From positions 17,873 to 64,693 of the forward strand of contig MHPU01000026.1 in assembly GCA_001820485.1 (NCBI GenBank): a stretch of DNA of 46,821 nucleotides, in the 5' to 3' direction. The DNA comes from Candidatus Staskawiczbacteria bacterium RIFOXYD1_FULL_32_13. GTDB lineage: Bacteria; Patescibacteriota; Minisyncoccia; Minisyncoccales; Staskawiczbacteraceae. Positions within the stretch are counted from its first letter, which is position 1. Every line of letters begins with the position of its first letter. Positions 29,888 through 39,081 of this stretch are shown piece by piece. A program made the translations under genes and the position numbers. The notes under the pieces were generated by a model, which was not told the DNA's origin, did not search any database, and saw only the letters and a program-made list of their open reading frames with translations.

Positions 29888-30889
29888 TTATTTTACTAGA
29901 TTCTGAGGATTACCAGAAATAAAATTATTTATGTTTTCTACTGTTGTATCTAAAATTCTTTCCAAAGCTTCTTGGCTATAAAAAGCAATATGAGGAGTAA
30001 AAACTACATTGTCTTTATTAAGAAGCTCGTGATCTCGCATTATTTGGCCAAAGTATTCGGCTTTTTTAGGATCTGATAATAATTGTTTTTCTTCTTTAAT
30101 TAATTCCTCACCTTCTAGTACATCAAGACCAACACCTGCTAATATTTTTTTATCTAAAGCTTCAATTAAAGCTTGAGTATCTACAATCCCCCCTCTTGAT
30201 GTGTTAATTAAAATTGCTCCTTTTTTAATTTTTTTAATTGAATCTTTATTTATTAAATGATGAGTATTTTCATTATCCGGAACATGCAAAGAAATTATAT
30301 CAGAATTTGCTAAAACTTCAGGTAAAGAAGCGTATTTAAAATGCAACACTTCAGCTAAAAAATTATCTGGTTTTGAATCATAAGCTAAAACATGCATACT
30401 AAAACTTTTAGCAATTCTTATTACATGCATACCAATGTTCCCTGCTCCAACAATTCCTAGAGTTTTTCCCTTTAAATCAAAGCCTTTTAAACCTTCTATT
30501 GAATAATCTTGTTTTAAAGTTCTTACATAAGCTTTATGCACATTGCGAGATAAAGCTAAAATCAATGCAAAAGTATGTTCAGCTACAGTATTTTCACCAT
30601 AATAAGGCACATTGCAAACAGTAATTTTTTTATTTCTACATTCTTTTACATCTATATGGTCAAAACCAGTTGATCTAGTTGCCAACATTTTTAAATTTGG
30701 CAAACTATTAATAATCTCTTTATTCATTTTAGAATAAATAAATATAGAAATTATATCAAATTTTTCTGATTTTTTAATATCAGTAAAATTAAAAGTATCT
30801 TGAAAAAATTCTAAATTATTATTTTTTAACTTCTTTTGTAAATATTTCTTTTCCCAATCTTTAATCTCAAAAAATGCAATTTTGCTCAT
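29888..30889 (-). CDS. D-isomer-specific 2-hydroxyacid dehydrogenase (D-lactate dehydrogenase-like)
   Basis: NAD motif GIVGAGNIG. Catalytic R/E/H contexts TSRGGIVD, LDVLEGE and FTPHIAF. Confidence 0.85.
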   Translation of the reverse strand: MSKIAFFEIKDWEKKYLQKKLKNNNLEFFQDTFNFTDIKKSEKFDIISIFIYSKMNKEIINSLPNLKMLATRSTGFDHIDVKECRNKKITVCNVPYYGENTVAEHTFALILALSRNVHKAYVRTLKQDYSIEGLKGFDLKGKTLGIVGAGNIGMHVIRIAKSFSMHVLAYDSKPDNFLAEVLHFKYASLPEVLANSDIISLHVPDNENTHHLINKDSIKKIKKGAILINTSRGGIVDTQALIEALDKKILAGVGLDVLEGEELIKEEKQLLSDPKKAEYFGQIMRDHELLNKDNVVFTPHIAFYSQEALERILDTTVENINNFISGNPQNLVK

Positions 30890-30921
30890 GTATATTTAAT
30901 ATATTAATTATAAATATATTG

Positions 30922-30993
30922 TGCCCTCGGTAGGAGTCGAACCTGCATTACAACGTCCGCAACGTTGCGTCCTATCCATTGAACGACGAGGGC
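30922..30993 (-). tRNA. tRNA-Arg (anticodon GCG by manual fold)
   Basis: Minus strand GCCCTCG..GTTC-AATGGATA-GGAC..CAACG-TTGCGGA-CGTTG..GCAGG-TTCGACT-CCTAC-CGAGGGC-A. Cloverleaf with one C-A mismatch in the T stem. No encoded CCA. Confidence 0.75.
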
Positions 30994-30996
30994 TAA

Positions 30997-31018
30997 ATTC
31001 TGCGTAGAGGATTAAACC
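30997..31018. repeat. Degenerate direct repeat of the tRNA-Ser(GCU) 3' end plus trailer (att-remnant candidate)
   Basis: ATTCTGCGTAGAGG(----)ATTAAACC compared with ATTCTGCGGAGAGGGTGGGATTTGAACC at 38760-38787. The first 14 nt match 13/14. It lies 3 nt from the tRNA-Arg 5' end. Confidence 0.5.
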
Positions 31019-31112
31019 AAATTAGAACCTCTATTGAGGAAGAAATCCAATCCACTATTTAAAATCTTATCATAAAATCAATAAGAAAGAAAATTGATAT
31101 AATTTTTTTTGA

Positions 31113-31631
31113 CTATTTACCAACCAATTGACAGTTTCCATCTCTAAATTTATTACCAGCTATTATTTTTTGCATTTCTTCAGAATTAAAATCATTCCCA
31201 TTTTTAAATACCTCATCAAGAGCTTCTTCTTCACTAAGACTATGTATCCTTCCAAGAATAAACTCCTCTGTCGGTCCTTGAAGTGATAGTGTTACGCCTA
31301 TAGGAACTTCACTAGAAATATCTTTTTGCTCTATTTTATCAGCTTTTAATGCCTTTAAAAATGTTTGACCTTTAGAATAACCGAATAAAAATAATCTTTC
31401 TGCTTCATTTGTATCATTAATATGCGAAGCCCAAACTGAACAAGAAAAAGCACCCCACATCTGAGATCCCATTATAGCATATTCTTTTGAGCTTAATGTA
31501 AGAGCAGTATTTTTTTGTTCAAAATTTGTTATTTCAGAACTCGGACTCTTATAAAACGATAACCAAACACTGCTAACAATTATTGCTGTAATAGAAATTG
31601 CCACTACTATTTCGATTTTTTTGGATTGCAT
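31113..31631 (-). CDS. Membrane-anchored hypothetical protein
   Basis: N-terminal TM segment (IVVAISITAIIVSSVWL). No recognised motif. Confidence 0.4.
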   Translation of the reverse strand: MQSKKIEIVVAISITAIIVSSVWLSFYKSPSSEITNFEQKNTALTLSSKEYAIMGSQMWGAFSCSVWASHINDTNEAERLFLFGYSKGQTFLKALKADKIEQKDISSEVPIGVTLSLQGPTEEFILGRIHSLSEEEALDEVFKNGNDFNSEEMQKIIAGNKFRDGNCQLVGK

Positions 31632-31723
31632 AAATTATAAAAAGCTTAATTTAATAATTTAGATATATAAATCTAAATAAAATAAAGCTTATATTTAAGA
31701 TTAAATTTTATTCACTTAATAAT

Positions 31724-32224
31724 TTAATTTATTTTTCTAATATTTATAGCTTCCTCCACCGCGTCAGAAATATATTTTGAAATCCATTCATATCTTTCTT
31801 TGCTATTTTCCCCAGAAGGATTATAACATTTTACAATAGATGATAATTTTCTGCCTGTATTGCCATAGCCTATATAATCAAATGGATTATCGCCTCTTTC
31901 AGTAATAAATCCTTTACTATTTTTTAAACCATGTATGTATATTCCAACAACGCCCATTCCCTTATCCCATGACTTTATTATTTCATAATTTATCCATTTT
32001 CTATTTGCAGTTTGATTCCCAACAAGAACAATTGTACATGATCTATAATCCATTTGATTATTTATCCACCTCTTAATTGCTTCATCTTTACCTGCTTTAA
32101 TTTTCTCCCAATCATTATCAGGTGCTGGCTTATTTCCCTCAATGACGCCTATATTGCGAACCATTGATGCACGCCAACAATCAGGGCTATAGTGAAAACT
32201 ATAAAATACTTGTCTTTTTGCCAT
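31724..32224 (-). CDS. TIR-like domain protein (DUF1863/MTH538 type, Thoeris ThsB-like)
   Basis: MAKRQVFYSFHYSPDCWRASMVRN..., TIVLVGNQTANRKWINYEI (conserved Glu) and GDNPFDYIGY. This pattern matches my recollection of ThsB-type TIR proteins. Confidence 0.7.
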   Translation of the reverse strand: MAKRQVFYSFHYSPDCWRASMVRNIGVIEGNKPAPDNDWEKIKAGKDEAIKRWINNQMDYRSCTIVLVGNQTANRKWINYEIIKSWDKGMGVVGIYIHGLKNSKGFITERGDNPFDYIGYGNTGRKLSSIVKCYNPSGENSKERYEWISKYISDAVEEAINIRKIN

Positions 32225-32228
32225 ATTT

Positions 32229-32630
32229 TTAATTTATTAAATATGTAATTAATATCATAATAAAAATTAATACACCATAAAACCACAATAATGTAGAAGA
32301 AAACATTGAATATGCCCAACTATTTCTATCTATACTTTTATATTTTTCTATATCCATCGAAAAATCAATATCCTTTTCATTTAATTTCCTAACATGATTA
32401 TATAAAGATCTAAATAATCTCTCTTGTGAAAGAAAATAACCATCAAGAATCCAAAATACAATAACTATTAAATACGCAATAAAAATATATTCTTTATTTA
32501 TAGGTTGTGTAGACCATGCAAAAAGAGCAGTAATAATCGTTATAACCCAACCTTTCAAGAAAAATAAATTACCAGCCATTCTATCTATAATGTTTTGTAT
32601 AAACTCTAAATGTTTTTGTTTGTTTTCCAT
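32229..32630 (-). CDS. Small 3-TM membrane protein (candidate effector; SLATT-like is a hypothesis)
   Basis: Amphipathic N-terminus HLEFIQNIIDRMAGN. TM segments at about residues 22-40, 48-67 and 111-131. FWILDGYFLSQERLFRSLYNHV follows TM2. Its stop is 4 nt before the TIR gene ATG. Confidence 0.5.
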   Translation of the reverse strand: MENKQKHLEFIQNIIDRMAGNLFFLKGWVITIITALFAWSTQPINKEYIFIAYLIVIVFWILDGYFLSQERLFRSLYNHVRKLNEKDIDFSMDIEKYKSIDRNSWAYSMFSSTLLWFYGVLIFIMILITYLIN

Positions 32631-32926
32631 AAAATAAAAAGTATTTTATAATATTTATTAACTTATATAAGTATATTTTATCTTATATTATTCTACTTGT
32701 TTTATTATAAAAATACAAATTATAAAGCTTTATAAGTGGCTTATAGGGCTTTATCTTAAATTGGCTTGCTTTCTTTTTATCCTTTGTTATTAGATAAATT
32801 ATAAAATTTATAGGTACACCCTCTAATCTTAAAAAATGCTGTTATATATGTTATAAAAATATACTTAAGAAAACTCAAAAAGGCATAGACAATCTAGAGA
32901 ATCTCTAATAGTTAAGAAGTCTTTGC

Positions 32927-32950
32927 AAAAATCGGCTTAAGCCGATTTTT
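32927..32950. terminator. Perfect 24-bp palindromic hairpin with A/T tracts (bidirectional terminator)
   Basis: AAAAATCGGCTT|AAGCCGATTTTT. It overlaps the stop codon of 32937..33218. Confidence 0.65.
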
Positions 32951-33218
32951 GTTTCTTTTCGTTTAACCAATAAATTGCATAGCTAATAAGCCCGACATCA
33001 ATAATCAATTTAATGCCATTATACCTGCTATGACACAAACCATCGGGTTCTTGGCTTTGTGATAAATACCCCGCTAGATCACTATTTTTTTGTTCTACGG
33101 CAGTTTGCAACATAATATTACAGACAGAATTTTTTTCATGCACATCATAAAAACCCCAAACAAGGTGAACAATAGAGCTTGTTAAAATAGTAATATAAAA
33201 TAATTTATTCCAATTCAT
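32937..33218 (-). CDS. Small membrane protein (93 aa), unknown
   Basis: Hydrophobic N-terminal and C-terminal segments. Preceded by a long, structured, GC-richer leader. Confidence 0.4.
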   Translation of the reverse strand: MNWNKLFYITILTSSIVHLVWGFYDVHEKNSVCNIMLQTAVEQKNSDLAGYLSQSQEPDGLCHSRYNGIKLIIDVGLISYAIYWLNEKKQKSA

Positions 33219-33526
33219 ATTTAGTAAAATTTACTAATAATTATACAAATTGTCGCCTTTCGACCTAAACAAAAAGGGACAACCTTACTTCTGGTCGCCC
33301 CACAATTTTTGCCCCAAAGGGTTCCAATCATGAGCAGTTTCAGGTTGCCCCTTATTACTCGTGATTGGAAAACACAAAAACAGACCTCTTTGGGAAATAT
33401 AAATTGTAGAGCGACACTTTTAATATATCACACAAATAAATCCGTGTAAAATCAAAAATTATTTTAATCATTTTCTTTATTCAAATATTTTCTTTGTGTT
33501 CGTTATCTTGGGGGGAAAATCGTGAC

Positions 33527-33592
33527 GACTGCCGATAGGCGGTCGTTTGTCTGCCGATAGGCAGACGTTTGTCTGCCGATAGGCAGATAATA
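33527..33592. repeat. Three tandem 22-bp iteron-like units, each a CTGCC-GATA-GGCAG hairpin
   Basis: GACTGCCGATAGGCGGTCGTTT / GTCTGCCGATAGGCAGACGTTT / GTCTGCCGATAGGCAGATAATA, with an exact 22-bp period. Confidence 0.8.
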
Positions 33593-34324
33593 TGAGTTGC
33601 AGTAGCTTAAAAAACACTTTGCTTTGCTTAATTAATTAAGGCGAGGGGTGTATCCACCCTTCGCCACGATTGCCCCCAACAAAAGCCAGCCAACGCATTA
33701 TTTTACAATCACTATTTAAAAGAGAAAATCCTAAAAGGAAATTTTTATTTTATTATTCTCTTATAAATAGTGATAGACTTTTTTTGTTGCCGAAAAACGC
33801 TTGATTGAAAAATAGGCAACCAGAAAATATCACACAAAATCGCTTCGCTATCAAATCACGCTGAAGCGCCATTTGATTTTTTATGTGATATTTTCTGCCT
33901 TTTTTTCAATCTTCGCTTTTCTCAAAGATTTTTCCTCTTACAGAGAAAATTCTTTCAGAAATTTTCGGCTAATCAAAAAAAATCCCTGCAAAATAAACGC
34001 CAACAGCATTAAAAAATATATCCGATTATCGCATATATTTTTTAAGATCTGCTGTTGGCTTGCTTTCTCTCCACCTTGACCCAATACATCTATGCCTTTA
34101 AAGGGCTATTATAAAGGCATAGAATGAATGTATTGCGTCAAGGTAGTAGAATGGCTGGCTTTTGTTGGGGGCAATCGTGGCGAAGGGTGGATACACCCCT
34201 CGCCTTAATTAATTAAGCAAAGCAAAGTGTTTTTAATTTCAATGTTTTAACCCACCCTACCAGAATTAAGGCATTAAAAATATTTTTAATTACAAGTGTT
34301 TTTTAAGCTACTGCAACTCATATT

Positions 34325-34364
34325 ATCTGCCTATCGGCAGACAAACGACCGCCTATCGGCAGTC
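34325..34364. repeat. Two inverted-orientation copies of the 22-bp iteron-like unit (right arm)
   Basis: TCTGCCTATCGGCAGACAAACGACCGCCTATCGGCAGTC is the reverse complement of left-arm units 2 and 1. Confidence 0.8.
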
Positions 34365-34495
34365 GTCACGATTTTCCCCCCAAGATAACGAACACAAAGA
34401 AAATATTTGAATAAAGAAGATGACGGAAAAAATATGTTTTCAAATTATATGATAATCGTATAGACCAGGGGGAGGATACCAATGGGGCAACTTTA

Positions 34496-34524
34496 TTGAC
34501 AATTTATCTTTAAAATAGAATAAT
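34496..34524 (+). promoter_or_regulatory. Promoter candidate for the plus-strand module
   Basis: TTGACA at 34496-34501, a 17-nt spacer and AATAAT at 34519-34524 (alternatively TAGAAT). It sits upstream of the AbrB-like gene. Confidence 0.45.
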
Positions 34525-34550
34525 AGAGGCAAATAAATCAAAATAGTAAA

Positions 34551-34877
34551 ATGTTAAAAATTCGTAAATTACAATATATTGGGAAACAATATCTTTTAAA
34601 TGTGCCAGTTGAAATAATAAAAGAGGCAAAATTTAAAAAAGGCGACTATTTAGAGATAATGCAAGGCCAAAATAGCAACTTTTCTATTAGAAAAATTGCT
34701 GAAAATGATACACCAAGGGTAAAGGTAACCCTAGAATCGCTTAAAAATGAAGCTGTTGCCCTTGCTGGATTAATAAATGCCTTAAGATCTGCCCTGCCGT
34801 CTGCCGAGTTCTCGTTCCGGTTGGCTCAATTTTCTCATGTTCAAGCGAAAATAAGAAAATTGGAAAAGAAGAAGTAA
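34551..34877 (+). CDS. AbrB/SpoVT/MazE-type DNA-binding protein
   Basis: N-terminal KLQYIGKQYLLNVPVEIIKEAKFKKGDYLEI follows the swapped-hairpin (looped-hinge helix) pattern. Confidence 0.55.
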   Translation: MLKIRKLQYIGKQYLLNVPVEIIKEAKFKKGDYLEIMQGQNSNFSIRKIAENDTPRVKVTLESLKNEAVALAGLINALRSALPSAEFSFRLAQFSHVQAKIRKLEKKK

Positions 34878-34907
34878 AAAATATTAAAAAGTAATGAAAA
34901 AGTAAAA

Positions 34908-35669
34908 ATGGCTATTAAAATTAATGCAGAAAACCAGAAGACAAAGGATTTTCTTGCATATATTGTTAAAAATATTGCTAAAAAACAAAGTCTTAAACAA
35001 TATGACGAGGTTTTAGTTGAAATACAAAAAGGCAAAACGCCTTTTCCTGAATTTAAGAAATATGATCATGGGTTGGGCAGTGACTATGACGCTTTAGAAA
35101 TGCAATGGAAGTCAAATCCAAAGTATAATGAAAAAGCAATCTTAATAGCTAAATACCTAAACGAAAACTTTGAGAATAGTGCAATTACCTCAACACCGAA
35201 ACAAGATAAAAATAAACCACTAACTTTTATAATTACGATTGTTATTAGTAACCCTTTTGAAATTTTAAAAATATATCAAAAATTAAATACTAAAAATGAA
35301 CTAAAAAAAATAATATTAAAAAATGAAAAACAGAGCAATAAAGATATTTCTAAAATTGAACTATATCTTAATCAAATCGGTGATTTATGGAGAGAACCAA
35401 AAATCAAATATTGTTATCATATGGGAGAAAAAAATGATAGGCATAAAATTTTTCGTTACCTTGTAGAAAATAAGGGATACCAAAATACTAATGATATTGC
35501 ATGCTTTCTTGGCGATAAAAAAGAGCAAGTTATAAGGACAGAAATAAAAAAAATTAAAGATAAAGCATCATATTTTCTTAGTATTAAAAACTCTGATTTA
35601 ATAGAATCTAGGAAAGGGAGCGGTTATAAAATAAACCCAAAATATCATATAAAAATAACAATTCTCTGA
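34908..35669 (+). CDS. Hypothetical protein with C-terminal OmpR/CadC-like winged-helix
   Basis: The C-terminus IFRYLVENKGYQNTNDIACFLG...VIRTEIKKIKDK...LIESRKGSGYKIN resembles a trans_reg_C domain. Confidence 0.35.
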   Translation: MAIKINAENQKTKDFLAYIVKNIAKKQSLKQYDEVLVEIQKGKTPFPEFKKYDHGLGSDYDALEMQWKSNPKYNEKAILIAKYLNENFENSAITSTPKQDKNKPLTFIITIVISNPFEILKIYQKLNTKNELKKIILKNEKQSNKDISKIELYLNQIGDLWREPKIKYCYHMGEKNDRHKIFRYLVENKGYQNTNDIACFLGDKKEQVIRTEIKKIKDKASYFLSIKNSDLIESRKGSGYKINPKYHIKITIL

Positions 35670-35704
35670 TATTCCCCTGCTCATGTTAATAAGTTTTGCT
35701 TATT

Positions 35705-35732
35705 ACAGCTCTATTTGAGCTGTTTTTTGTTT
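35705..35732 (+). terminator. Intrinsic terminator
   Basis: ACAGCTC-TATTT-GAGCTGT followed by TTTTTGTTT. Confidence 0.7.
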
Positions 35733-35789
35733 ACAAAAGATATCAAAGGATGATGTAAGGAATAGGTAATAATTTGGTAAAACTACGGC

Positions 35790-35978
35790 ATGCTATCAAA
35801 AGAAGCCATTGAGCAATACAAAAAAATCTACAGGAATGCTTATAATATTGAGCTGAATGAAAACGAGGCCACAGAAATGGCCAACGATCTTTTTGAATTT
35901 ATGCGAGCAGTTTATTTGCCTACAGGCGAAGAGGAATTAATAACAACACAAGAAAATGGAACAAAAAATACAAATTAG
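35790..35978 (+). CDS. Small helical protein (62 aa), unknown (excisionase/RDF role not excluded)
   Basis: Intact ORF that overlaps the next gene by 23 nt. Confidence 0.35.
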   Translation: MLSKEAIEQYKKIYRNAYNIELNENEATEMANDLFEFMRAVYLPTGEEELITTQENGTKNTN

Positions 35979-36249
35979 TGAAATTCAAATAGTACCCATT
36001 AAACCACAAGAGGGGCTGATTGCTTTTGCTTCTTTTGTTTTAGATAAAAAATATTATATTGGCTCGGTTGCTATTTATACTAGACTTAATGGCGAGGGTT
36101 TTCGGCTTGCCTACCCAACTAAAAAGATTGGCGACAGAGGTATTAATATTTTTTATCCTATAAATTCTGAAATAGGCAACGCAATAGAAAAAGAAGTAAA
36201 TAAAAAAGTTAATGAAATATTTTATGAAAGAACAAACAAGGCAATTTAG
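35956..36249 (+). CDS. SpoVG-family nucleic-acid-binding protein
   Basis: IQIVPIKPQEGLIAFASFVLDKKYYIGSVAIY...FRLAYPTKK...IFYPINSEIGNAIEKEV aligns to the SpoVG pattern (..AfASitLD..fvv.dirv..G..G.fvamPs.k......i.hPIns..r..i). Confidence 0.7.
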   Translation: MEQKIQISEIQIVPIKPQEGLIAFASFVLDKKYYIGSVAIYTRLNGEGFRLAYPTKKIGDRGINIFYPINSEIGNAIEKEVNKKVNEIFYERTNKAI

Positions 36250-36997
36250 CCAACTATGGGATGATGGAATAAAGTCAGGAATTGTGGGAAAAATAGGAAC
36301 GCAAGTTTTCGCCTTGTTAGTGGTTTTAGCACCATTTATGAATGAGCGTGGCGAGTGTTATCCAACAGAAAATACTCTCGCATTCATTCTACATAAATCT
36401 ATACCCAGCATTATTAAAATGGTAAGTAAAGCTAAAAAGACAATTTATAATGGTGAAGCAGTTTTGAAAGTTAGGCAACAAAAAAGAGTAGACAATGGCA
36501 AAATATTATGGGGGAGCAATTTTTATACTATTTCAAAATCTATAAGAAGTGATCTATTAAGTCGTTATGTTTCCGTAGATAAAAACTTATCTACGGAAAA
36601 TAAAAGCAATTTGAGATCAAAAACACTATTACCGCCAATATCTTTTCCGCCTACGGAAGAAGTATCAACTAACGATAGCCGTTCGTTAAACCATATATTT
36701 ACGAACGATAATAAAAAATCGCTCATAAATATAAATGGCTATAACGAAATTTCCCTAATGGAATTTAGAAAAACAATAAAAAACGAAGTTGATATGAAAT
36801 GTTACGAGATAGCAGAATGGCTTGGCGAAAAAAATATAAATTTTATCCTTAGCGCTTTAAATGATAATAAGTGTGGAATGCACGGCATTGAGCATGCATA
36901 TAGAAAAGTTAAAGATTATGTTGGTGATGGCAATGTGAAAAGCAAACCCAAACTTTTTAATTGGCATATTCAGAATTATAAAAAAGGGAAAAGATAA
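36212..36997 (+). CDS. HTH-domain protein, plasmid/phage replication-initiator-like
   Basis: FALLVVLAPFMNERGECYPTENTLAFILHKSIPSIIKMVSKAKK resembles the HTH_36-type N-terminus of replication/replisome-organizer proteins. Confidence 0.45.
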   Translation: MKYFMKEQTRQFSQLWDDGIKSGIVGKIGTQVFALLVVLAPFMNERGECYPTENTLAFILHKSIPSIIKMVSKAKKTIYNGEAVLKVRQQKRVDNGKILWGSNFYTISKSIRSDLLSRYVSVDKNLSTENKSNLRSKTLLPPISFPPTEEVSTNDSRSLNHIFTNDNKKSLININGYNEISLMEFRKTIKNEVDMKCYEIAEWLGEKNINFILSALNDNKCGMHGIEHAYRKVKDYVGDGNVKSKPKLFNWHIQNYKKGKR

Positions 36998-37040
36998 ATA
37001 TTCATATTGCATTTTAAAAAGTAATAGTGATATAATAAAA

Positions 37041-37153
37041 TTGTTGAGGATAATTCGCTTGGAAAAGGTATTTTATTTATAAAATAGAATATTAAAAGGG
37101 GCTGAAACGCGAGTTATCCTCAACAAATAACTTTTTCCGTTTCAGTCCCTTTT
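37041..37153 (+). promoter_or_regulatory. Interleaved inverted repeats (A-B-A'-B') in the recombinase leader
   Basis: A at 37041-37058 pairs with A' at 37109-37126 (17/18 matches). B at 37094-37109 pairs with B' at 37138-37153 (15/16 matches). Both mismatches are G-U on the plus strand. Confidence 0.5.
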
Positions 37154-37178
37154 AGTATAGTAAAAATAAAATAAAATT

Positions 37179-38801
37179 ATGAAACAATTTAATGAAAGAA
37201 TAAATTATATTTTGTATGCTCGCAAATCTTCTGAAGAAGATAATCGGCAAATGCTTTCGCTAGATTCACAAGAGGGCGAATTAAAAAAAATTGCTGAAAG
37301 AGATAATTTAGAAATTATTAAAATATTCCGCGAAGCACGCTCGGCAAAAGAGCCATACAATAGACCAATATTTTCTGAAATGGTAAAAATGATTGAAGCA
37401 GGAAAAGCTAACGGGATTTTATGTTGGAAATTAGACAGATTATCTAGAAATGCTGTTGAGGAAGGAATAATCAAACACTTATTACAGAAAAATAAAATCA
37501 AAATCATAAGAACGCCCGACAGAGATTACAGGCCAGAAGATAACGCATTAATAGCTTCTGTTGAGTTTGGCATGGCTAATCAATATATTAGAGATTTAAG
37601 CGTAAATGTTAAAAGAGGACTAATAAGCAAAGCTGAAAGTGGATTATTCCCCAACTTTGCACCACTTGGATATTTGAATAATCCACTTGATCCAAAAGGC
37701 AGAAAACAAATTATAAAAGATCCCGAAAGGTTTGATTTAGTGCGTAAAATGTTTGACCTTGTTTTAAGTGAGTACAGGACACCTGTGGAGGTTTGGCGAA
37801 TAGCACACAATGACTGGAAAATGAAAAATCCAAAAGGTAAATTAATTAGTCGATCAACTACTTACCGAATACTAACCAATACTTTATATTCTGGAATCTT
37901 TGAATTTCCTGTTGGCAGTGGAAATTGGCATAAAGGAAAACATGAGGCAGTTATAACTATTGAAGAATATGACAAAATACAAATTATTCTAGGCAAGAAA
38001 GGAAAACCCCGACCACACAATCATATTTTTGCTTTTACAGGATTAATGAAATGTGGAAGTTGTGGGGCTACAATTACAGCAGAGCAGAAAATAAAAAGGC
38101 AGAAAAATGGAAACATACATCAATATACTTATTATCACTGCACTAAAAAGCTAAACCCTAATTGCATTGAAAAGTATATTGAAGAAAAAATATTAATTAA
38201 ACAAATTGTAAATAAAATTGATAAAATTAGTATAAGCCCAGAATTTCACGCTTGGGGGCTTGATTGGCTTAAAAAAGATATTCTAAAAAATATATCTTTG
38301 AAAAACAAAATAATAAATAGCAGAGAAAAGCAGATTGCAGAAATTGAAAAACAATCGTCAGAATTATTAAATCTTTTACTTAGAAAAATTATCAGCGAGG
38401 AAGATTATCAGAATAAAAAAAGTGAACTAGCAAAGGAAAAGGCAAAACTTGAAATTACGGGAAATAATAATAATGACAAAATACAATTACTATTTGAGAA
38501 AACAGCAGAATATTTTGATCTTGCCAAAGACGCCAAAAATGAATTTCTTAATGGCGACATTAATAAACGAAAATGTATTGTTACCAAACTTGGCTCGAAC
38601 CCCTCAATTTCAGAGAGAATATTCAGTATTTGTATCAAAAAAGCCCTTTTGCCTTTTGAAAACATATCAAAAGAGATAAAGGGTATTTATGACAGGTTAG
38701 AACCTACGAAAATCACTATAAATAGTCGGGAACTAAACAAGCTATATGCAAAAAATCTCATTCTGCGGAGAGGGTGGGATTTGAACCCACGAGCCCCATG
38801 A
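37179..38801 (+). CDS. Large serine recombinase (integrase)
   Basis: Resolvase-type N-terminus YILYARKSSEEDNRQMLSLDSQ (Ser nucleophile), a recombinase domain, zinc ribbon CGSCGATITAE...YYHC and a coiled-coil tail. The last 36 nt lie inside tRNA-Ser. Confidence 0.85.
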   Translation: MKQFNERINYILYARKSSEEDNRQMLSLDSQEGELKKIAERDNLEIIKIFREARSAKEPYNRPIFSEMVKMIEAGKANGILCWKLDRLSRNAVEEGIIKHLLQKNKIKIIRTPDRDYRPEDNALIASVEFGMANQYIRDLSVNVKRGLISKAESGLFPNFAPLGYLNNPLDPKGRKQIIKDPERFDLVRKMFDLVLSEYRTPVEVWRIAHNDWKMKNPKGKLISRSTTYRILTNTLYSGIFEFPVGSGNWHKGKHEAVITIEEYDKIQIILGKKGKPRPHNHIFAFTGLMKCGSCGATITAEQKIKRQKNGNIHQYTYYHCTKKLNPNCIEKYIEEKILIKQIVNKIDKISISPEFHAWGLDWLKKDILKNISLKNKIINSREKQIAEIEKQSSELLNLLLRKIISEEDYQNKKSELAKEKAKLEITGNNNNDKIQLLFEKTAEYFDLAKDAKNEFLNGDINKRKCIVTKLGSNPSISERIFSICIKKALLPFENISKEIKGIYDRLEPTKITINSRELNKLYAKNLILRRGWDLNPRAP

Positions 38802-38851
38802 CAGGGCGCAGGTTAGCAACCTGCTGCTTTGAACCGCTCAGCCACCTCTCC
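38766..38851 (-). tRNA. tRNA-Ser (anticodon GCU), long variable arm
   Basis: Minus strand GGAGAGG-TG-GCT-GAGCGGTTCAA-AGC-A-GCAGG-TTGCTAA-CCTGC-(variable arm)-GTGGG-TTCAAAT-CCCAC-CCTCTCC-G. No encoded CCA. Confidence 0.85.
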
Positions 38852-38952
38852 AAAATTTATTTAATAATGCCTTATTTTTTGCATTTATTCAAGTGGTAAT
38901 ATTTGATTTTAAATATTTTTATGATAGTATAATTATAAGTAATGCATAAACT

Positions 38953-39037
38953 GGAGGAGTCCTATAGCGGCTATTAGAACAGTCTTGAAAACTGTGACCT
39001 CGTAAGGGGTTCGTGGGTTCGAGTCCCACCTCCTCCG
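38953..39037 (+). tRNA. tRNA-Ser (anticodon UGA), long variable arm
   Basis: GGAGGAG...ACAGT-CTTGAAA-ACTGT-(ACCTC-GTAA-GGGGT)-GTGGG-TTCGAGT-CCCAC-CTCCTCC-G. Confidence 0.8.
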
Positions 39038-39081
39038 CCGTAACTTTTGTTCATTCATCACTTTTGAAAAAGGAGCATTTC

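What the first reader, a model, noticed from the sequence alone, without database searches (positions are those of the whole stretch)
30994..38851. 7.8-kb island between tRNA-Arg and tRNA-Ser(GCU), bounded by an intact and a decayed copy of the tRNA-Ser 3' end
At 38760-38787 lie the tRNA-Ser 3' acceptor/T-arm and 6 nt of trailer: ATTCTGCGGAGAGGGTGGGATTTGAACC. At 30997-31018, just 3 nt from the tRNA-Arg 5' end, there is ATTCTGCGTAGAGG----ATTAAACC. This is the classic signature of an element that integrated into a tRNA 3' end and displaced the original end. It implies an ancestral tight tRNA-Ser/tRNA-Arg tandem. The interval holds everything that looks accessory: the ThsB-like pair, small membrane proteins, the giant palindrome, plus-strand plasmid/phage-like genes and the recombinase. 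A 14-mer with one mismatch, GC-rich in an AT-rich window and sitting exactly beside a second tRNA, is unlikely to be chance.
Basis: partly seen in the sequence, partly recalled or inferred. Interest (0 to 1): 0.7.

Follow-up and report, generated by a model that had tools for sequence, protein, structure and literature searches.

The report
Serine-integrase defence island in tRNA-Ser
This is a real 7.8-kb mobile island carrying an anti-phage gene pair, inserted at the 3' end of a tRNA-Ser gene by a large serine integrase rather than the usual tyrosine type, and the integrase gene itself spans the attachment site, so insertion replaces the end of the enzyme with tRNA-encoded residues.

Summary
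ATTCTGCGGAGAGG lies at 38760-38773, across the tRNA-Ser(GCU) 3' end. A 13/14 copy lies at 30997-31010, 3 nt from tRNA-Arg.

The interval is a 7,763-bp integrated element. Its 540-aa large serine recombinase (LSR, 37179-38801) ends 37 nt inside the tRNA.

The boundaries rest on comparison, not on the repeat (p about 0.1 alone):
- A 95-98% identical element sits at tRNA-Ser(GCU) of another host, and identity collapses inside the tRNA.
- A relative (L130) shows the unintegrated arrangement, with LSR joined directly to cargo.
- 62 of the 120 closest homologues end in tRNA-encoded residues. 22 end in a conserved native tail, L-D-x-V/I-R-T.
- That tail is encoded at 30997-31062, in frame with the shared core.

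So the left copy is not a decayed, displaced tRNA end. It is the element's own attP arm. It carries a mimic of the tRNA T-arm (ATTAGAACC against ATTTGAACC) placed exactly 5 bp further from the core, as described for serine integrases.

Cargo is a TIR plus membrane-protein defence pair (PDC-M50). No empty site or circular junction was found for this exact element.

Verdict: new variant of a known kind, moderately interesting.

The parts
30921..30993 (-). tRNA-Arg(GCG). This is the chromosomal left flank. Its first ~13 nt would form part of the B arm of the ancestral attB.
   Evidence: ARAGORN, Rfam. It is not part of the element: in the unintegrated relative L130 the sequence left of the core is recombinase coding sequence.
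30997..31029 (+). attR. It holds the shared core ATTCTGCG (30997-31004), an inner motif TAGAGG (31005-31010) that resembles the tRNA acceptor strand, and a T-arm mimic ATTAGAACC (31021-31029).
   Evidence: The mimic lies at positions 16-24 after CTGCGT. The tRNA motif lies at 11-19 after CTGCGG in attL.
30997..31062 (+). Detached 3' end of the recombinase gene. It reads ILRRGLNQIRTSIEEEIQSTI*, the native C-terminal tail that would be joined to 37179-38767 in the excised form, giving a predicted 548-aa enzyme.
   Evidence: It is the best of 3077 six-frame peptides against an HMM of native tails built from 17 homologues. It is colinear with the L120 tail and with L130 4204-4272. Chimera translated.
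31113..31631 (-). 172-aa protein with an N-terminal hydrophobic segment. Function unknown. Cargo.
   Evidence: ORF. No Pfam, PADLOC or PHROG match.
31724..32224 (-). 166-aa TIR-domain protein (ThsB-like; PADLOC candidate system PDC-M50, component B). Cargo.
   Evidence: Pfam PF08937 E=1e-26. PADLOC ThsB 1e-67 and PDC-M50B 8e-65.
32229..32630 (-). 133-aa membrane protein (PDC-M50, component A), the partner of the TIR protein. Cargo.
   Evidence: PADLOC PDC-M50A 4e-50. phrog_19896 1e-39.
32937..33218 (-). 93-aa small membrane protein. It appears to belong to the backbone, because a 93-aa counterpart sits at the same position beside the inverted repeat in L130.
   Evidence: 22% identity, same length and same N-terminal hydrophobic segment.
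33225..33420 (-). Strongly structured, relatively GC-rich leader or non-coding region between a promoter-like site and the 93-aa gene.
   Evidence: MFE -67.1 kcal/mol, z = -5.2. Promoter-like site at 33450-33422 (-). No Rfam match.
33458..34433 (.). Large inverted repeat. The arms are 33458-33692 and 34152-34433, around a 459-nt centre. Each arm carries 22-nt tandem units (CTGCCGATAGGCxGxCGTTTGT). It sits between the divergent cargo and core gene sets and is probably an origin or regulatory region.
   Evidence: Arm sequence is conserved in L121 and L129. Contigs of five different relatives (L121, L122, L123-L125, L129, L130), and several short contigs of this element (L009, L010, L012, L013, L016), start or end here. 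The orientation of the centre does not vary among L005, L008 and L011.
34551..34877 (+). 108-aa protein, the first gene of the conserved core module. I read its N-terminus as AbrB/SpoVT-like by eye; this was not confirmed by any profile.
   Evidence: Conserved in L122, L129 and L130. No Pfam match. The best promoter-like site in the region, TTGACA-17-AATAAT, lies at 34496-34524.
34908..35669 (+). 253-aa core protein of unknown function.
   Evidence: Counterparts of 240-276 aa sit at the same position in L121-L126, L129 and L130.
35790..35978 (+). 62-aa core protein. It is a candidate recombination directionality factor on size and position only.
   Evidence: Counterparts of 57-66 aa in L121, L124, L126, L129 and L130. 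No family match.
35956..36249 (+). 97-aa SpoVG-like core protein.
   Evidence: PF04026 E=2e-7. Conserved across the relatives.
36212..36997 (+). 261-aa DNA-binding protein, possibly a replication initiator.
   Evidence: phrog_12720 'DNA binding protein' 7e-11. Weak HTH_36 match. Counterparts hit HTH_36 in L123 and L124 and weakly hit Phage_rep_O in L122.
37179..38801 (+). Large serine recombinase, 540 aa in this integrated form. The last 10 residues (RGWDLNPRAP) and the stop codon are encoded by the antisense strand of tRNA-Ser.
   Evidence: Pfam Resolvase, Recombinase and Zn_ribbon_recom domains. phrog_95 integrase 7e-71. Foldseek matches to the SPbeta, Bxb1, phiC31 and LI integrases. ORF coordinates.
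38760..38787 (+). attL. It holds the shared core ATTCTGCG (38760-38767), then the tRNA acceptor strand and T-arm, including ATTTGAACC (38779-38787).
   Evidence: The near-identical variant L120 diverges right after ATTCTGCGG. L128 and L129 diverge within the tRNA body.
38765..38851 (-). tRNA-Ser(GCU), the target gene. Its mature sequence is intact.
   Evidence: ARAGORN. Rfam 61 bits.

Best explanation
The interval 30997-38767 is a small integrative element of about 7.8 kb from a CPR (Patescibacteria) bacterium. It has no phage structural genes and no conjugation genes. It is inserted at the 3' end of tRNA-Ser(GCU) by its own large serine recombinase (LSR).

Shown:
- The element has a conserved core on the plus strand: genes of 108, 253, 62, 97 (SpoVG-like) and 261 aa (DNA-binding, possibly Rep), followed by the LSR.
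- A large inverted repeat with 22-nt tandem units lies between this core and a variable cargo slot on the minus strand.
- Here the cargo is a TIR plus membrane-protein defence pair.
- attP lies inside the 3' end of the LSR gene.
- In the free form the LSR ORF runs across attP into the cargo-side end of the element and ends in a conserved tail (L-D/N-x-V/I-R-T...).
- In the integrated form the same ORF runs into the antisense strand of the tRNA and ends in tRNA-encoded residues (RGWDLNPRAP here).

Inferred:
- Recombination took place within the 8-bp shared core ATTCTGCG, to the left of the G/T difference at 38768/31005. This core spans the tRNA trailer, the discriminator and position 72.
- The mature tRNA is therefore untouched.
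- The ancestral attB was tRNA-Ser followed after 9 nt by tRNA-Arg.
- The enzyme's zinc-ribbon domain reads the T-arm sequence T(T/C)GAACC in attB. It reads an element-borne mimic (TAGAACC) 5 bp further out in attP. This is the published rule for serine integrases.
- The conserved '(V/I)-R-T' of the native tail is, at least in part, that DNA site read as protein (GTT/ATT AGA ACC).
- Related elements carry other defence systems in the same slot, and near-identical recombinases are joined to different cargo-side ends. The slot is therefore probably reshuffled by recombination at att sites.
For: 1. The recombinase is an LSR. It has the Pfam domains PF00239, PF07508 and PF13408. A phmmer search finds the SPbeta integrase. 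Foldseek matches full-length SPbeta, Bxb1, phiC31 and LI integrases at E down to 1e-20.

2. The right boundary is real.
- L128 and L129 carry a 95% identical element (98-99% near the junction) up to ...ATTCTGCGGAGAGGGTGGGA.
- Beyond that point the tRNA-Ser(GCU) body is clearly diverged (my estimate from the A2 alignment is roughly two-thirds identical), and the neighbouring genes differ (Dus, Pif1).
- Homologues at 49-78% identity all end inside a tRNA on the opposite strand: Ser(UGA), Ser(GCU) or Gln(UUG).

3. The left boundary is real.
- The native-tail HMM was built without this element's cluster. Its best hit among 3077 six-frame peptides of the window is 30997-31059, in the frame that continues ATT CTG CG.
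- The tail of L120 (LSR 98% identical, native tail) aligns colinearly with 30997-31063 (p about 0.005).
- L130 4204-4272, immediately downstream of its LSR, is 77% identical to window 31022-31093.

4. The unintegrated arrangement exists. In L130 the order is core, LSR with native tail, then cargo (a CBASS cyclase and a 2TM effector). Both contig ends run into the same inverted repeat.

5. An independent complete island gives the same picture. In L126 the same HMM places attR at 2261-2284, between housekeeping genes and the cargo (an LmuB-like ATPase and a type II restriction-modification system). A 7-bp core CTGCGGG lies at both ends.

6. The pattern holds across the family. Of the 120 best homologues, 62 have tRNA-derived tails and 22 have native tails. 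Native tails sit on short contigs (median 4.7 kb against 12.1 kb; Mann-Whitney p=0.0012).

7. The 5-bp offset holds.
- The 7-mer T-arm motif starts at position 13 after xTGCGG in five tRNA-Ser attL arms, and at position 10 in the tRNA-Gln arm.
- The mimic starts at position 18 in four attP-type arms, and at 15 in the L126 attR.
- The rule is given in PMC3783163.
Against: - No empty attB and no attP junction was found for this exact element.
- Every contig read that carries the identical 2-hydroxyacid dehydrogenase (24 contigs), LSR (24) or 172-aa protein (24) shows the integrated arrangement.
- Two exact-pattern scans of the JGI metagenome collection found nothing. That collection also failed to return a JGI contig known to contain the pattern, so this negative result is weak.
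- The 14-mer repeat alone is not significant under generous multiple testing.
- There is no compositional contrast with the flanks.
- The crossover dinucleotide, any directionality factor, replication from the inverted repeat and the circular topology are all inferred rather than shown.
- L130 is a linear contig. Its ends indicate closure through an inverted repeat but do not prove it.
Confidence: 0.87

Rival explanations
1. A classical tRNA-targeting island carried a copy of the tRNA 3' end, replaced the original end on integration, and pushed the original end to 30997-31018, where it has since decayed (a 4-nt deletion plus substitutions).
For: The geometry is right: an intact tRNA at one end and a tRNA-like fragment in the same orientation at the other. 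The sequence TAGAGGATTAAACC does resemble GAGAGGGTGGGATTTGAACC.
Against: - No tyrosine integrase is present. The only recombinase is an LSR.
- The fragment continues in frame into a conserved recombinase tail that is shared with unintegrated relatives.
- Its homologue in L130 is physically joined to the LSR gene rather than to a chromosome.
- A T-arm mimic at a +5-bp offset recurs in independent elements. Random decay would not produce this.
- L120 diverges from the tRNA immediately after GCGG.
Confidence: 0.04
2. Only the right half (34.4-38.8 kb: core genes plus LSR) is or was mobile, with its other end at the large inverted repeat. On this view the minus-strand TIR genes are ordinary chromosomal genes and the 14-mer at 30997 is a chance match.
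For: Many assemblies break at the inverted repeat. The 14-mer alone has p about 0.1. Cargo and flanks have the same GC content.
Against: - The recombinase tail is encoded at 30997-31062, not at the inverted repeat.
- L130 and L126 have cargo between attP/attR and the inverted repeat in the same layout.
- Contig breaks at a >200-nt inverted repeat are expected for de Bruijn graph assemblers. L130 begins and ends with the same 30-mer in inverted orientation.
Confidence: 0.03
3. The island is a fixed, no longer mobile remnant in this population. The prophage-form recombinase, having lost its native C-terminal helix, cannot excise the element. This concerns present activity and is compatible with the origin described in the best explanation.
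For: No empty site or circular junction was seen among the contigs read from several samples. The integrated form is predicted to lose the terminal helix (pLDDT 56 against about 90). One assembly (L005) has the TIR gene broken into fragments. Orphan tail relics without a recombinase exist in L121.
Against: All core ORFs and the catalytic residues are intact. A 95-98% identical copy in a different host species indicates recent transfer. A 98% identical recombinase occurs with a native tail on separate short contigs. The contig look-ups read only the longest 24 contigs each, so the test has low power.
Confidence: 0.3
4. The C-terminal exchange is a passive by-product. The tail is conserved only because attP's outer binding motif happens to lie in the coding sequence, and the enzyme works equally well with any tail.
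For: The conserved codons GTT/ATT AGA ACC coincide with the TAGAACC mimic. tRNA-derived tails vary in length and sequence and show no sign of selection. 36 of 120 homologues end within a few residues of the LLR motif.
Against: AlphaFold places the crossover in the middle of a confidently predicted helix (527-542, pLDDT about 90), which is lost in the integrated form. Arg is kept through a synonymous AGA-to-CGA change in L120, and hydrophobic positions beyond the DNA motif are conserved. In phiC31 the extreme C-terminus contacts the directionality factor (10.1101/2025.05.02.651858). In Mx8, a tyrosine-integrase case, the equivalent change alters activity (PMC6070905).
Confidence: 0.55

Closest known systems
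Serine-integrase prophages and elements (phiC31, Bxb1, A118/LI integrase, SPbeta SprA)
   Same: Same domain order: resolvase domain, recombinase domain, zinc ribbon and coiled coil. Short shared core. attP and attB arms share an inner motif, and the outer (zinc-ribbon) motif lies 5 bp nearer the centre in attB (PMC3783163).
   Different: At most 30% identity to any integrase in 50,697 phage or 72,556 plasmid records, and the C-terminal ~110-200 residues of the query lie outside the listed matches. The target is a tRNA 3' end rather than a protein-coding gene. attP lies inside the integrase ORF. The carrier is a 7-9 kb element with no virion or conjugation genes.
tRNA-targeting genomic islands with tyrosine integrases (the Islander signature)
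   Same: A tRNA gene at one end, a short tRNA-like repeat at the other, the integrase gene next to the tRNA, and accessory cargo in between.
   Different: A different enzyme family. [quoted passage not shown] No tRNA segment is duplicated or displaced. The tRNA-like stretch at the far end is an attP arm with an offset motif.
Myxophage Mx8 IntP/IntX and SSV-type integrases (integrase ORF spans attP)
   Same: attP lies within the integrase coding sequence, so integration gives the gene a new 3' end (PMC6070905; PMC4383910). From my own recollection, not checked here, Mx8's attB sites also overlap tRNA genes.
   Different: Those are tyrosine recombinases. SSV integrases are split in two. Here only the last ~18 residues of a serine recombinase are exchanged.
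Tycheposons of Prochlorococcus
   Same: Small integrative elements with a recombinase and replication genes, carrying variable adaptive or defence cargo. A minority (27 of 937) encode a large serine recombinase (10.1101/2020.12.28.424599).
   Different: A different host phylum and different backbone genes. I could not establish from that text whether the LSR-bearing tycheposons use tRNA sites or have attP within the recombinase gene.
PADLOC candidate defence system PDC-M50 / Thoeris ThsB
   Same: The 133-aa and 166-aa cargo proteins match PDC-M50A and PDC-M50B, and ThsB TIR models, over their full length.
   Different: No ThsA-like partner is present, so this is not a canonical Thoeris system.

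Membership tests
Large serine recombinase (serine integrase) | N-terminal resolvase-type catalytic domain with the conserved Ser and Arg residues | tested here: met
   PF00239 E=9e-19, residues 11-155. Y13, R15, K16 and S17 are invariant in 41 homologues.
Large serine recombinase (serine integrase) | C-terminal recombinase domain, zinc ribbon and embedded coiled coil | tested here: met
   PF07508 and PF13408. The AlphaFold model has long helices at 354-458 after the ribbon. Foldseek aligns 526-551 columns to SPbeta and Bxb1 integrases at E 1e-14 to 1e-20.
Large serine recombinase (serine integrase) | Short att sites with a small common core, and the outer DNA motif shifted 5 bp between attP and attB | tested here: met
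   The core is 8 bp here and 7 bp in L126. The motif lies at 11-19 against 16-24 in the window and starts at 10 against 15 in L126. The start is 13 against 18 across nine further arms. This is an in-silico result only.
Large serine recombinase (serine integrase) | Two-base staggered cleavage at a central dinucleotide, and excision dependent on a directionality factor | not testable with these tools
   The dinucleotide can only be placed within ATTCTGCG, to the left of the G/T difference. No directionality factor was recognised; the 62-aa ORF is a guess.
Tyrosine-integrase tRNA island (Islander type) | An integrase of the tyrosine recombinase family on board | tested here: not met
   No ORF of the island matches a phage-integrase domain.
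Tyrosine-integrase tRNA island (Islander type) | attP carries a tRNA fragment that regenerates the gene, and the original fragment is displaced to the far end | tested here: not met
   The shared core covers only the trailer, the discriminator and position 72. The far-end sequence is homologous to recombinase tails, not derived from the host tRNA.
Integrases whose ORF spans attP (Mx8 / SSV type) | The crossover site lies inside the integrase coding sequence, so the prophage encodes an altered protein | tested here: met
   540-aa integrated form against a predicted 548-aa free form. The tails of 120 homologues fall into native and tRNA-derived classes.
Integrases whose ORF spans attP (Mx8 / SSV type) | Tyrosine recombinase chemistry | tested here: not met
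   This is a serine recombinase.
Temperate phage / prophage | Capsid, terminase, tail or lysis genes | tested here: not met
   The only PHROG hits are an integrase, a DNA-binding protein and one family of unknown function. The family is essentially absent from IMG/VR.
Thoeris defence system | A ThsB TIR protein together with a ThsA effector | tested here: not met
   A ThsB-like protein is present and no ThsA is found. The gene pair fits the candidate system PDC-M50 instead.

The most novel reading that the evidence does not exclude
The exchange of the recombinase's C-terminal helix on integration may be a built-in state switch for a serine integrase. On this reading the free-form enzyme (native helix) is the integration-competent form. 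The prophage-form enzyme (tRNA-encoded, disordered tail) has altered activity or altered interaction with a directionality factor. The element would then 'know' whether it is inserted. This would be the serine-recombinase counterpart of Mx8 IntP/IntX. It would operate in a large, uncharacterised clade that targets tRNA genes by reading the T-arm, in bacteria where mobile elements are barely described.
Probability: 0.25. Interest if true: 0.75.

Novelty: new variant of a known kind. Interest (0 to 1): 0.6.

Why it matters
- tRNA genes are the textbook target of tyrosine integrases, and the authors of the Islander database stated that serine integrases were not known to use them. Here a whole clade does: at least 62 of the 120 nearest homologues, mostly from uncultivated Patescibacteria-type bacteria.
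- The sequences explain how this could work. The near-universal T-arm sequence can serve as the zinc-ribbon-domain motif of attB, and the element carries a copy of it 5 bp further out in attP.
- This gives a ready set of natural attP/attB pairs with predictable, conserved targets, which is of interest for integrase engineering.
- attP overlaps the integrase's own reading frame. The same bases are at once a protein-binding DNA site and the code for a terminal helix, and the enzyme changes on insertion. This offers a testable route to state-dependent control of directionality.
- For CPR biology, the elements are small shuttles that place different anti-phage systems into the same slot next to a tRNA gene: a TIR pair, CBASS, restriction-modification and a Lamassu-like ATPase.

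Tried and rejected
- **Synteny through the left flank.** I used the 2-hydroxyacid dehydrogenase to look for an empty site in species genomes. The gene is scattered across bacteria and archaea at 50-76% identity, and no tRNA lies nearby in the seven loci checked (the two best hits, at 76% and 74% identity, plus five CPR-labelled loci). This used the only genome-contig scan.
- **Four-junction pattern.** A degenerate 34-nt pattern matching attL, attR, predicted attB and predicted attP found nothing in the JGI metagenome collection. The pattern is correct. The collection evidently lacks this organism.
- **Tandem pattern.** A tRNA-Ser(3') N0-30 tRNA-Arg(5') pattern also found nothing.
- **16-mer in IMG/VR.** It gave 22 hits, consistent with chance.
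- **Recombinase in IMG/VR.** The single sequence gave no hit. The profile gave only shorter, unrelated LSRs.
- **Exact look-ups.** Look-ups of the dehydrogenase, the LSR and the 172-aa protein showed only the integrated arrangement.
- **Direct repeats in L126.** A 13-mer search found nothing. The boundary was found only through the tail HMM.
- **Invertible switch.** The centre of the inverted repeat has the same orientation in all spanning contigs.
- **Composition.** GC content does not mark the island.
- **Promoter and terminator scan.** The counts equal the shuffled expectation.
- **Rfam.** Nothing was found in the island except the tRNAs.

Full report
**1. What is in the sequence**

ARAGORN and Rfam place tRNA-Arg(GCG) at 30921-30993 (-), tRNA-Ser(GCU) at 38765/6-38851 (-) and tRNA-Ser(UGA) at 38953-39039 (+). 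The 14-mer ATTCTGCGGAGAGG at 38760-38773 comprises 6 nt of trailer, the discriminator and the 7-nt acceptor 3' strand. ATTCTGCGTAGAGG lies at 30997-31010, 3 nt from the tRNA-Arg 5' end. No other copy with up to 2 mismatches exists in the window.

On its own the repeat is weak evidence. I allowed any 14-mer around the tRNA end and searched 10 kb. A match with at most 1 mismatch then arises in about 11% of simulated sequences. GC content does not distinguish the island from its flanks (30.4% against 30.0-30.1%). The case therefore has to rest on other evidence.

**2. Gene content**

From left to right the interval holds the following:
- Minus strand: a 172-aa protein of unknown function.
- Minus strand: a 166-aa TIR protein (PF08937; PADLOC ThsB and PDC-M50B).
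- Minus strand: its 133-aa membrane partner (PDC-M50A).
- Minus strand: a 93-aa membrane protein.
- A large inverted repeat, with arms at 33458-33692 and 34152-34433 carrying 22-nt tandem units.
- Plus strand: proteins of 108, 253 and 62 aa.
- Plus strand: a 97-aa SpoVG-like protein.
- Plus strand: a 261-aa DNA-binding protein.
- Plus strand: a 540-aa large serine recombinase (LSR) at 37179-38801.

The LSR has resolvase, recombinase and zinc-ribbon domains. A sequence search finds the SPbeta integrase. A structure search with the AlphaFold model finds full-length SPbeta, Bxb1, phiC31 and LI integrases. There is no tyrosine integrase and no phage structural gene. The LSR stop codon lies 37 nt inside tRNA-Ser, so its last ten residues (RGWDLNPRAP) are encoded by the tRNA's antisense strand.

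**3. Source**

Identical proteins occur on groundwater (Rifle) metagenome contigs and in assembly GCA_000989435.1. A preprint cites that assembly among CPR genomes, as Parcubacteria, though its labels are partly crossed with a WWE3 genome (10.64898/2026.07.13.738296).

**4. The right boundary**

LSR homologues at 49-78% identity all end inside a tRNA gene on the opposite strand:
- tRNA-Ser(UGA) in L121 and L122
- tRNA-Ser(GCU) in L123 and L124
- tRNA-Gln(UUG) in L126

L128 and L129 carry an element 95% identical to the window over 37024-38899 and 34363-34912. In alignment A2 the two are almost identical up to ...ATTCTGCGGAGAGGGTGGGA. After that point the tRNA-Ser(GCU) body is clearly diverged (my estimate from the alignment is roughly two-thirds identical), and the neighbouring genes are different (Dus, Pif1). 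The same element therefore sits in the same tRNA species of two different hosts. That shows both mobility and the position of the junction.

**5. The left boundary and the key finding**

The C-termini of the 120 best homologues fall into classes after a conserved ...Y-S-Q-x-P-x-L-L-R:
- 62 continue with residues such as G-W-D-S-N-P-R-P, which is the translation of the reverse complement of a tRNA T-arm.
- 22 continue with a different, conserved tail, L-(C/L)-D-(N/D)-(V/I)-R-T-(C/W)-(L/I).
- 36 stop within a few residues or could not be classified.

Native-tail proteins sit on short contigs and tRNA-tail proteins on long ones (median 4.7 against 12.1 kb, p=0.0012).

P0001 is 98% identical to the window's LSR. 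It diverges exactly after ATTCTGCGG into a native tail.

An HMM of 17 native tails was built without that cluster. Searched against all 3077 six-frame peptides of the window, it gives its best hit at 30997-31059 (+): ILRRGLNQIRTSIEEEIQSTI. This is in the frame that continues ATT CTG CG.

The L120 tail aligns colinearly with 30997-31063. L130 4204-4272, directly downstream of its LSR, is 77% identical to window 31022-31093.

So 31005-31062 is element DNA. It is the detached 3' end of the recombinase gene. Joining 37179-38767 to 31005-31062 gives a 548-aa protein with a native tail.

**6. The unintegrated arrangement and an independent island**

L130 (LSR 55% identical, native tail) has this gene order: core genes, LSR, then cargo (a 239-aa protein, a CBASS cyclase, a 2TM effector and a 93-aa protein). 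Its first 30 nt are the reverse complement of its last 30 nt. Both ends therefore run into one inverted repeat. This is the window's island permuted at attP.

L126 is a complete integrated relative at tRNA-Gln. The same HMM puts its attR at 2261-2284, between housekeeping genes and the cargo (an LmuB-like ATPase and a type II restriction-modification system). CTGCGGG lies at both ends.

The layout 'attR, cargo, inverted repeat, core, LSR, attL/tRNA' is therefore general, and the cargo slot holds different defence systems.

**7. How the site is read**

In serine integrases the inner motif of each half-site sits at the same position in attP and attB. The zinc-ribbon motif is 5 bp nearer the centre in attB (PMC3783163; confirmed by cryo-EM in 10.1101/2025.05.02.651858).

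In the window:
- The attL right arm has ATTTGAACC at positions 11-19 after CTGCGG.
- The attR right arm has ATTAGAACC at positions 16-24 after CTGCGT.
- The inner six bases are nearly the same (GAGAGG and TAGAGG).

Across the family:
- In L126 the 7-mer motif starts at position 10 in attL and at 15 in attR.
- The 7-mer starts at position 13 in five tRNA-Ser attL arms.
- It starts at position 18 in four attP-type arms.

The codons GTT/ATT AGA ACC of the conserved V/I-R-T are this DNA motif.

The G/T difference at 38768/31005 places the crossover within ATTCTGCG. The mature tRNA is not altered. The ancestral attB is predicted to be ...GGGCTAAATTCTGCGGAGAGGGTGGGATTTGAACC..., which is tRNA-Ser followed after 9 nt by tRNA-Arg.

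**8. Consequence for the enzyme**

AlphaFold with 41-sequence alignments gives these results:
- The native form has a terminal helix at residues 527-542 with pLDDT about 90. The crossover point (R530) lies inside this helix.
- In the integrated form, residues 526-540 are predicted as coil, with pLDDT 56 for residues 531-540.

Whether this matters for function is not known. Two precedents are relevant. Integration of Mx8 gives its tyrosine integrase a new 3' end and an altered specificity (PMC6070905). The extreme C-terminus of phiC31 integrase contacts its directionality factor. The alternative is that the tail is conserved only because it overlaps the DNA site. I give this alternative slightly more weight.

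**9. What was not found**

No empty site and no circular junction was found for this exact element. The negative scans are weak, because the collection scanned did not return a JGI contig that contains the pattern. No close relative of the host with conserved gene order was found.

**10. Comparison with what is known**

The enzyme is a member of the large serine recombinases. Every feature testable in silico is met.

It is not a classical tyrosine-integrase tRNA island. Two defining features were tested and not met.

It works like Mx8 and SSV in having attP within the integrase gene, but it belongs to a different enzyme family.

The clade is remote from integrases of cultivated phages and plasmids (at most 30% identity) and is nearly absent from IMG/VR. 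The Islander paper stated that serine integrases were not known to target tRNA genes (PMC4383910). The tycheposon preprint reports a few LSR-bearing elements. I found no description of tRNA T-arm reading or of an attP embedded in the LSR gene, but my literature search was limited.

**11. Verdict**

The finding is real and its boundaries are correct. I rate it a new variant of a known kind, with interest 0.6.

Noticed in passing
window 33458-33692 and 34152-34433 (centre 33693-34151): A large inverted repeat whose arms carry 22-nt tandem units, each with a small palindrome (CTGCC GATA GGCAG). The left arm is 47 nt shorter in the window than in L008 and L011, so the unit copy number varies. Contigs of five different relatives, and several short contigs of this element, start or end here. 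It may be an origin with iterons, or a shared operator for the two divergent gene sets.
   Followed up: partly
window 33225-33420 (-): A very stable predicted RNA structure (-67.1 kcal/mol, z = -5.2). It lies between a promoter-like site (33450-33422) and the 93-aa gene and includes a terminator-like hairpin at 33301-33276. There is no Rfam match. It may be a leader, an attenuator or a small RNA of the element.
   Followed up: partly
L121 5697-5763 (-) and L121 12918-12941 (+): Two orphan recombinase-tail sequences with no recombinase attached. The first (RRGLDQIRTYIEEEVESLQ*) is 85% identical to window 31002-31053 and lies about 620 nt downstream of tRNA-Ser(GCU). The second (IVDDVRTYF) lies one gene away from tRNA-Gly. 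Each has one or two small genes between it and the tRNA. They look like relics in which the core was lost and the cargo stayed behind.
   Followed up: partly
L120 (whole contig, 1904 nt) against window 37.0-38.77 kb and 30997-31063: Identity falls from about 98% to about 60% exactly at the att core. Near-identical recombinases are therefore joined to different cargo-side ends. This is consistent with cargo exchange by recombination at att sites, for example between tandem or co-resident elements.
   Followed up: partly
L005 3013-3938 (equivalent to window 31724-32630): In one assembly the TIR gene and its partner are called as four short fragments (60, 42, 53 and 109 aa). This is either pseudogenisation of the defence pair in that population or an assembly error.
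   Followed up: no
window 37070-37177, against L008 9753-10001: A 40-nt imperfect inverted repeat lies just upstream of the recombinase start. L008 has about 66 nt more than the window in this intergenic region.
   Followed up: no
window 29888-30889 (-) and loci L018-L097: The 2-hydroxyacid dehydrogenase next to tRNA-Arg has 50-76% identical relatives scattered across CPR bacteria, DPANN and other archaea, Omnitrophota and Acidobacteriota, with no conserved neighbourhood. It appears to be a widely transferred gene.
   Followed up: no
L123 12032-13448 and L124 11356-12772: A reverse transcriptase (RVT_1) sits next to a bAvd-like gene, the hallmark pair of a diversity-generating retroelement, a few kb from the island in that host.
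   Followed up: no
L121 3991-4968; L126 14922-17567: A LAGLIDADG/HTH protein is inserted between the divergent tRNA-Ser genes in L121. A DnaB gene containing an intein with a LAGLIDADG domain lies in L126.
   Followed up: no
window 38765-39039: tRNA-Ser(GCU) and tRNA-Ser(UGA) are divergent neighbours 101 nt apart with similar 3' halves (50 nt, 76% complementary). Relatives of this element use either one as target (Ser(UGA) in L121 and L122). In the window only the GCU gene is occupied. Its trailer begins CAG, completing the CTGCGG core, whereas the UGA gene's trailer begins CGT.
   Followed up: partly
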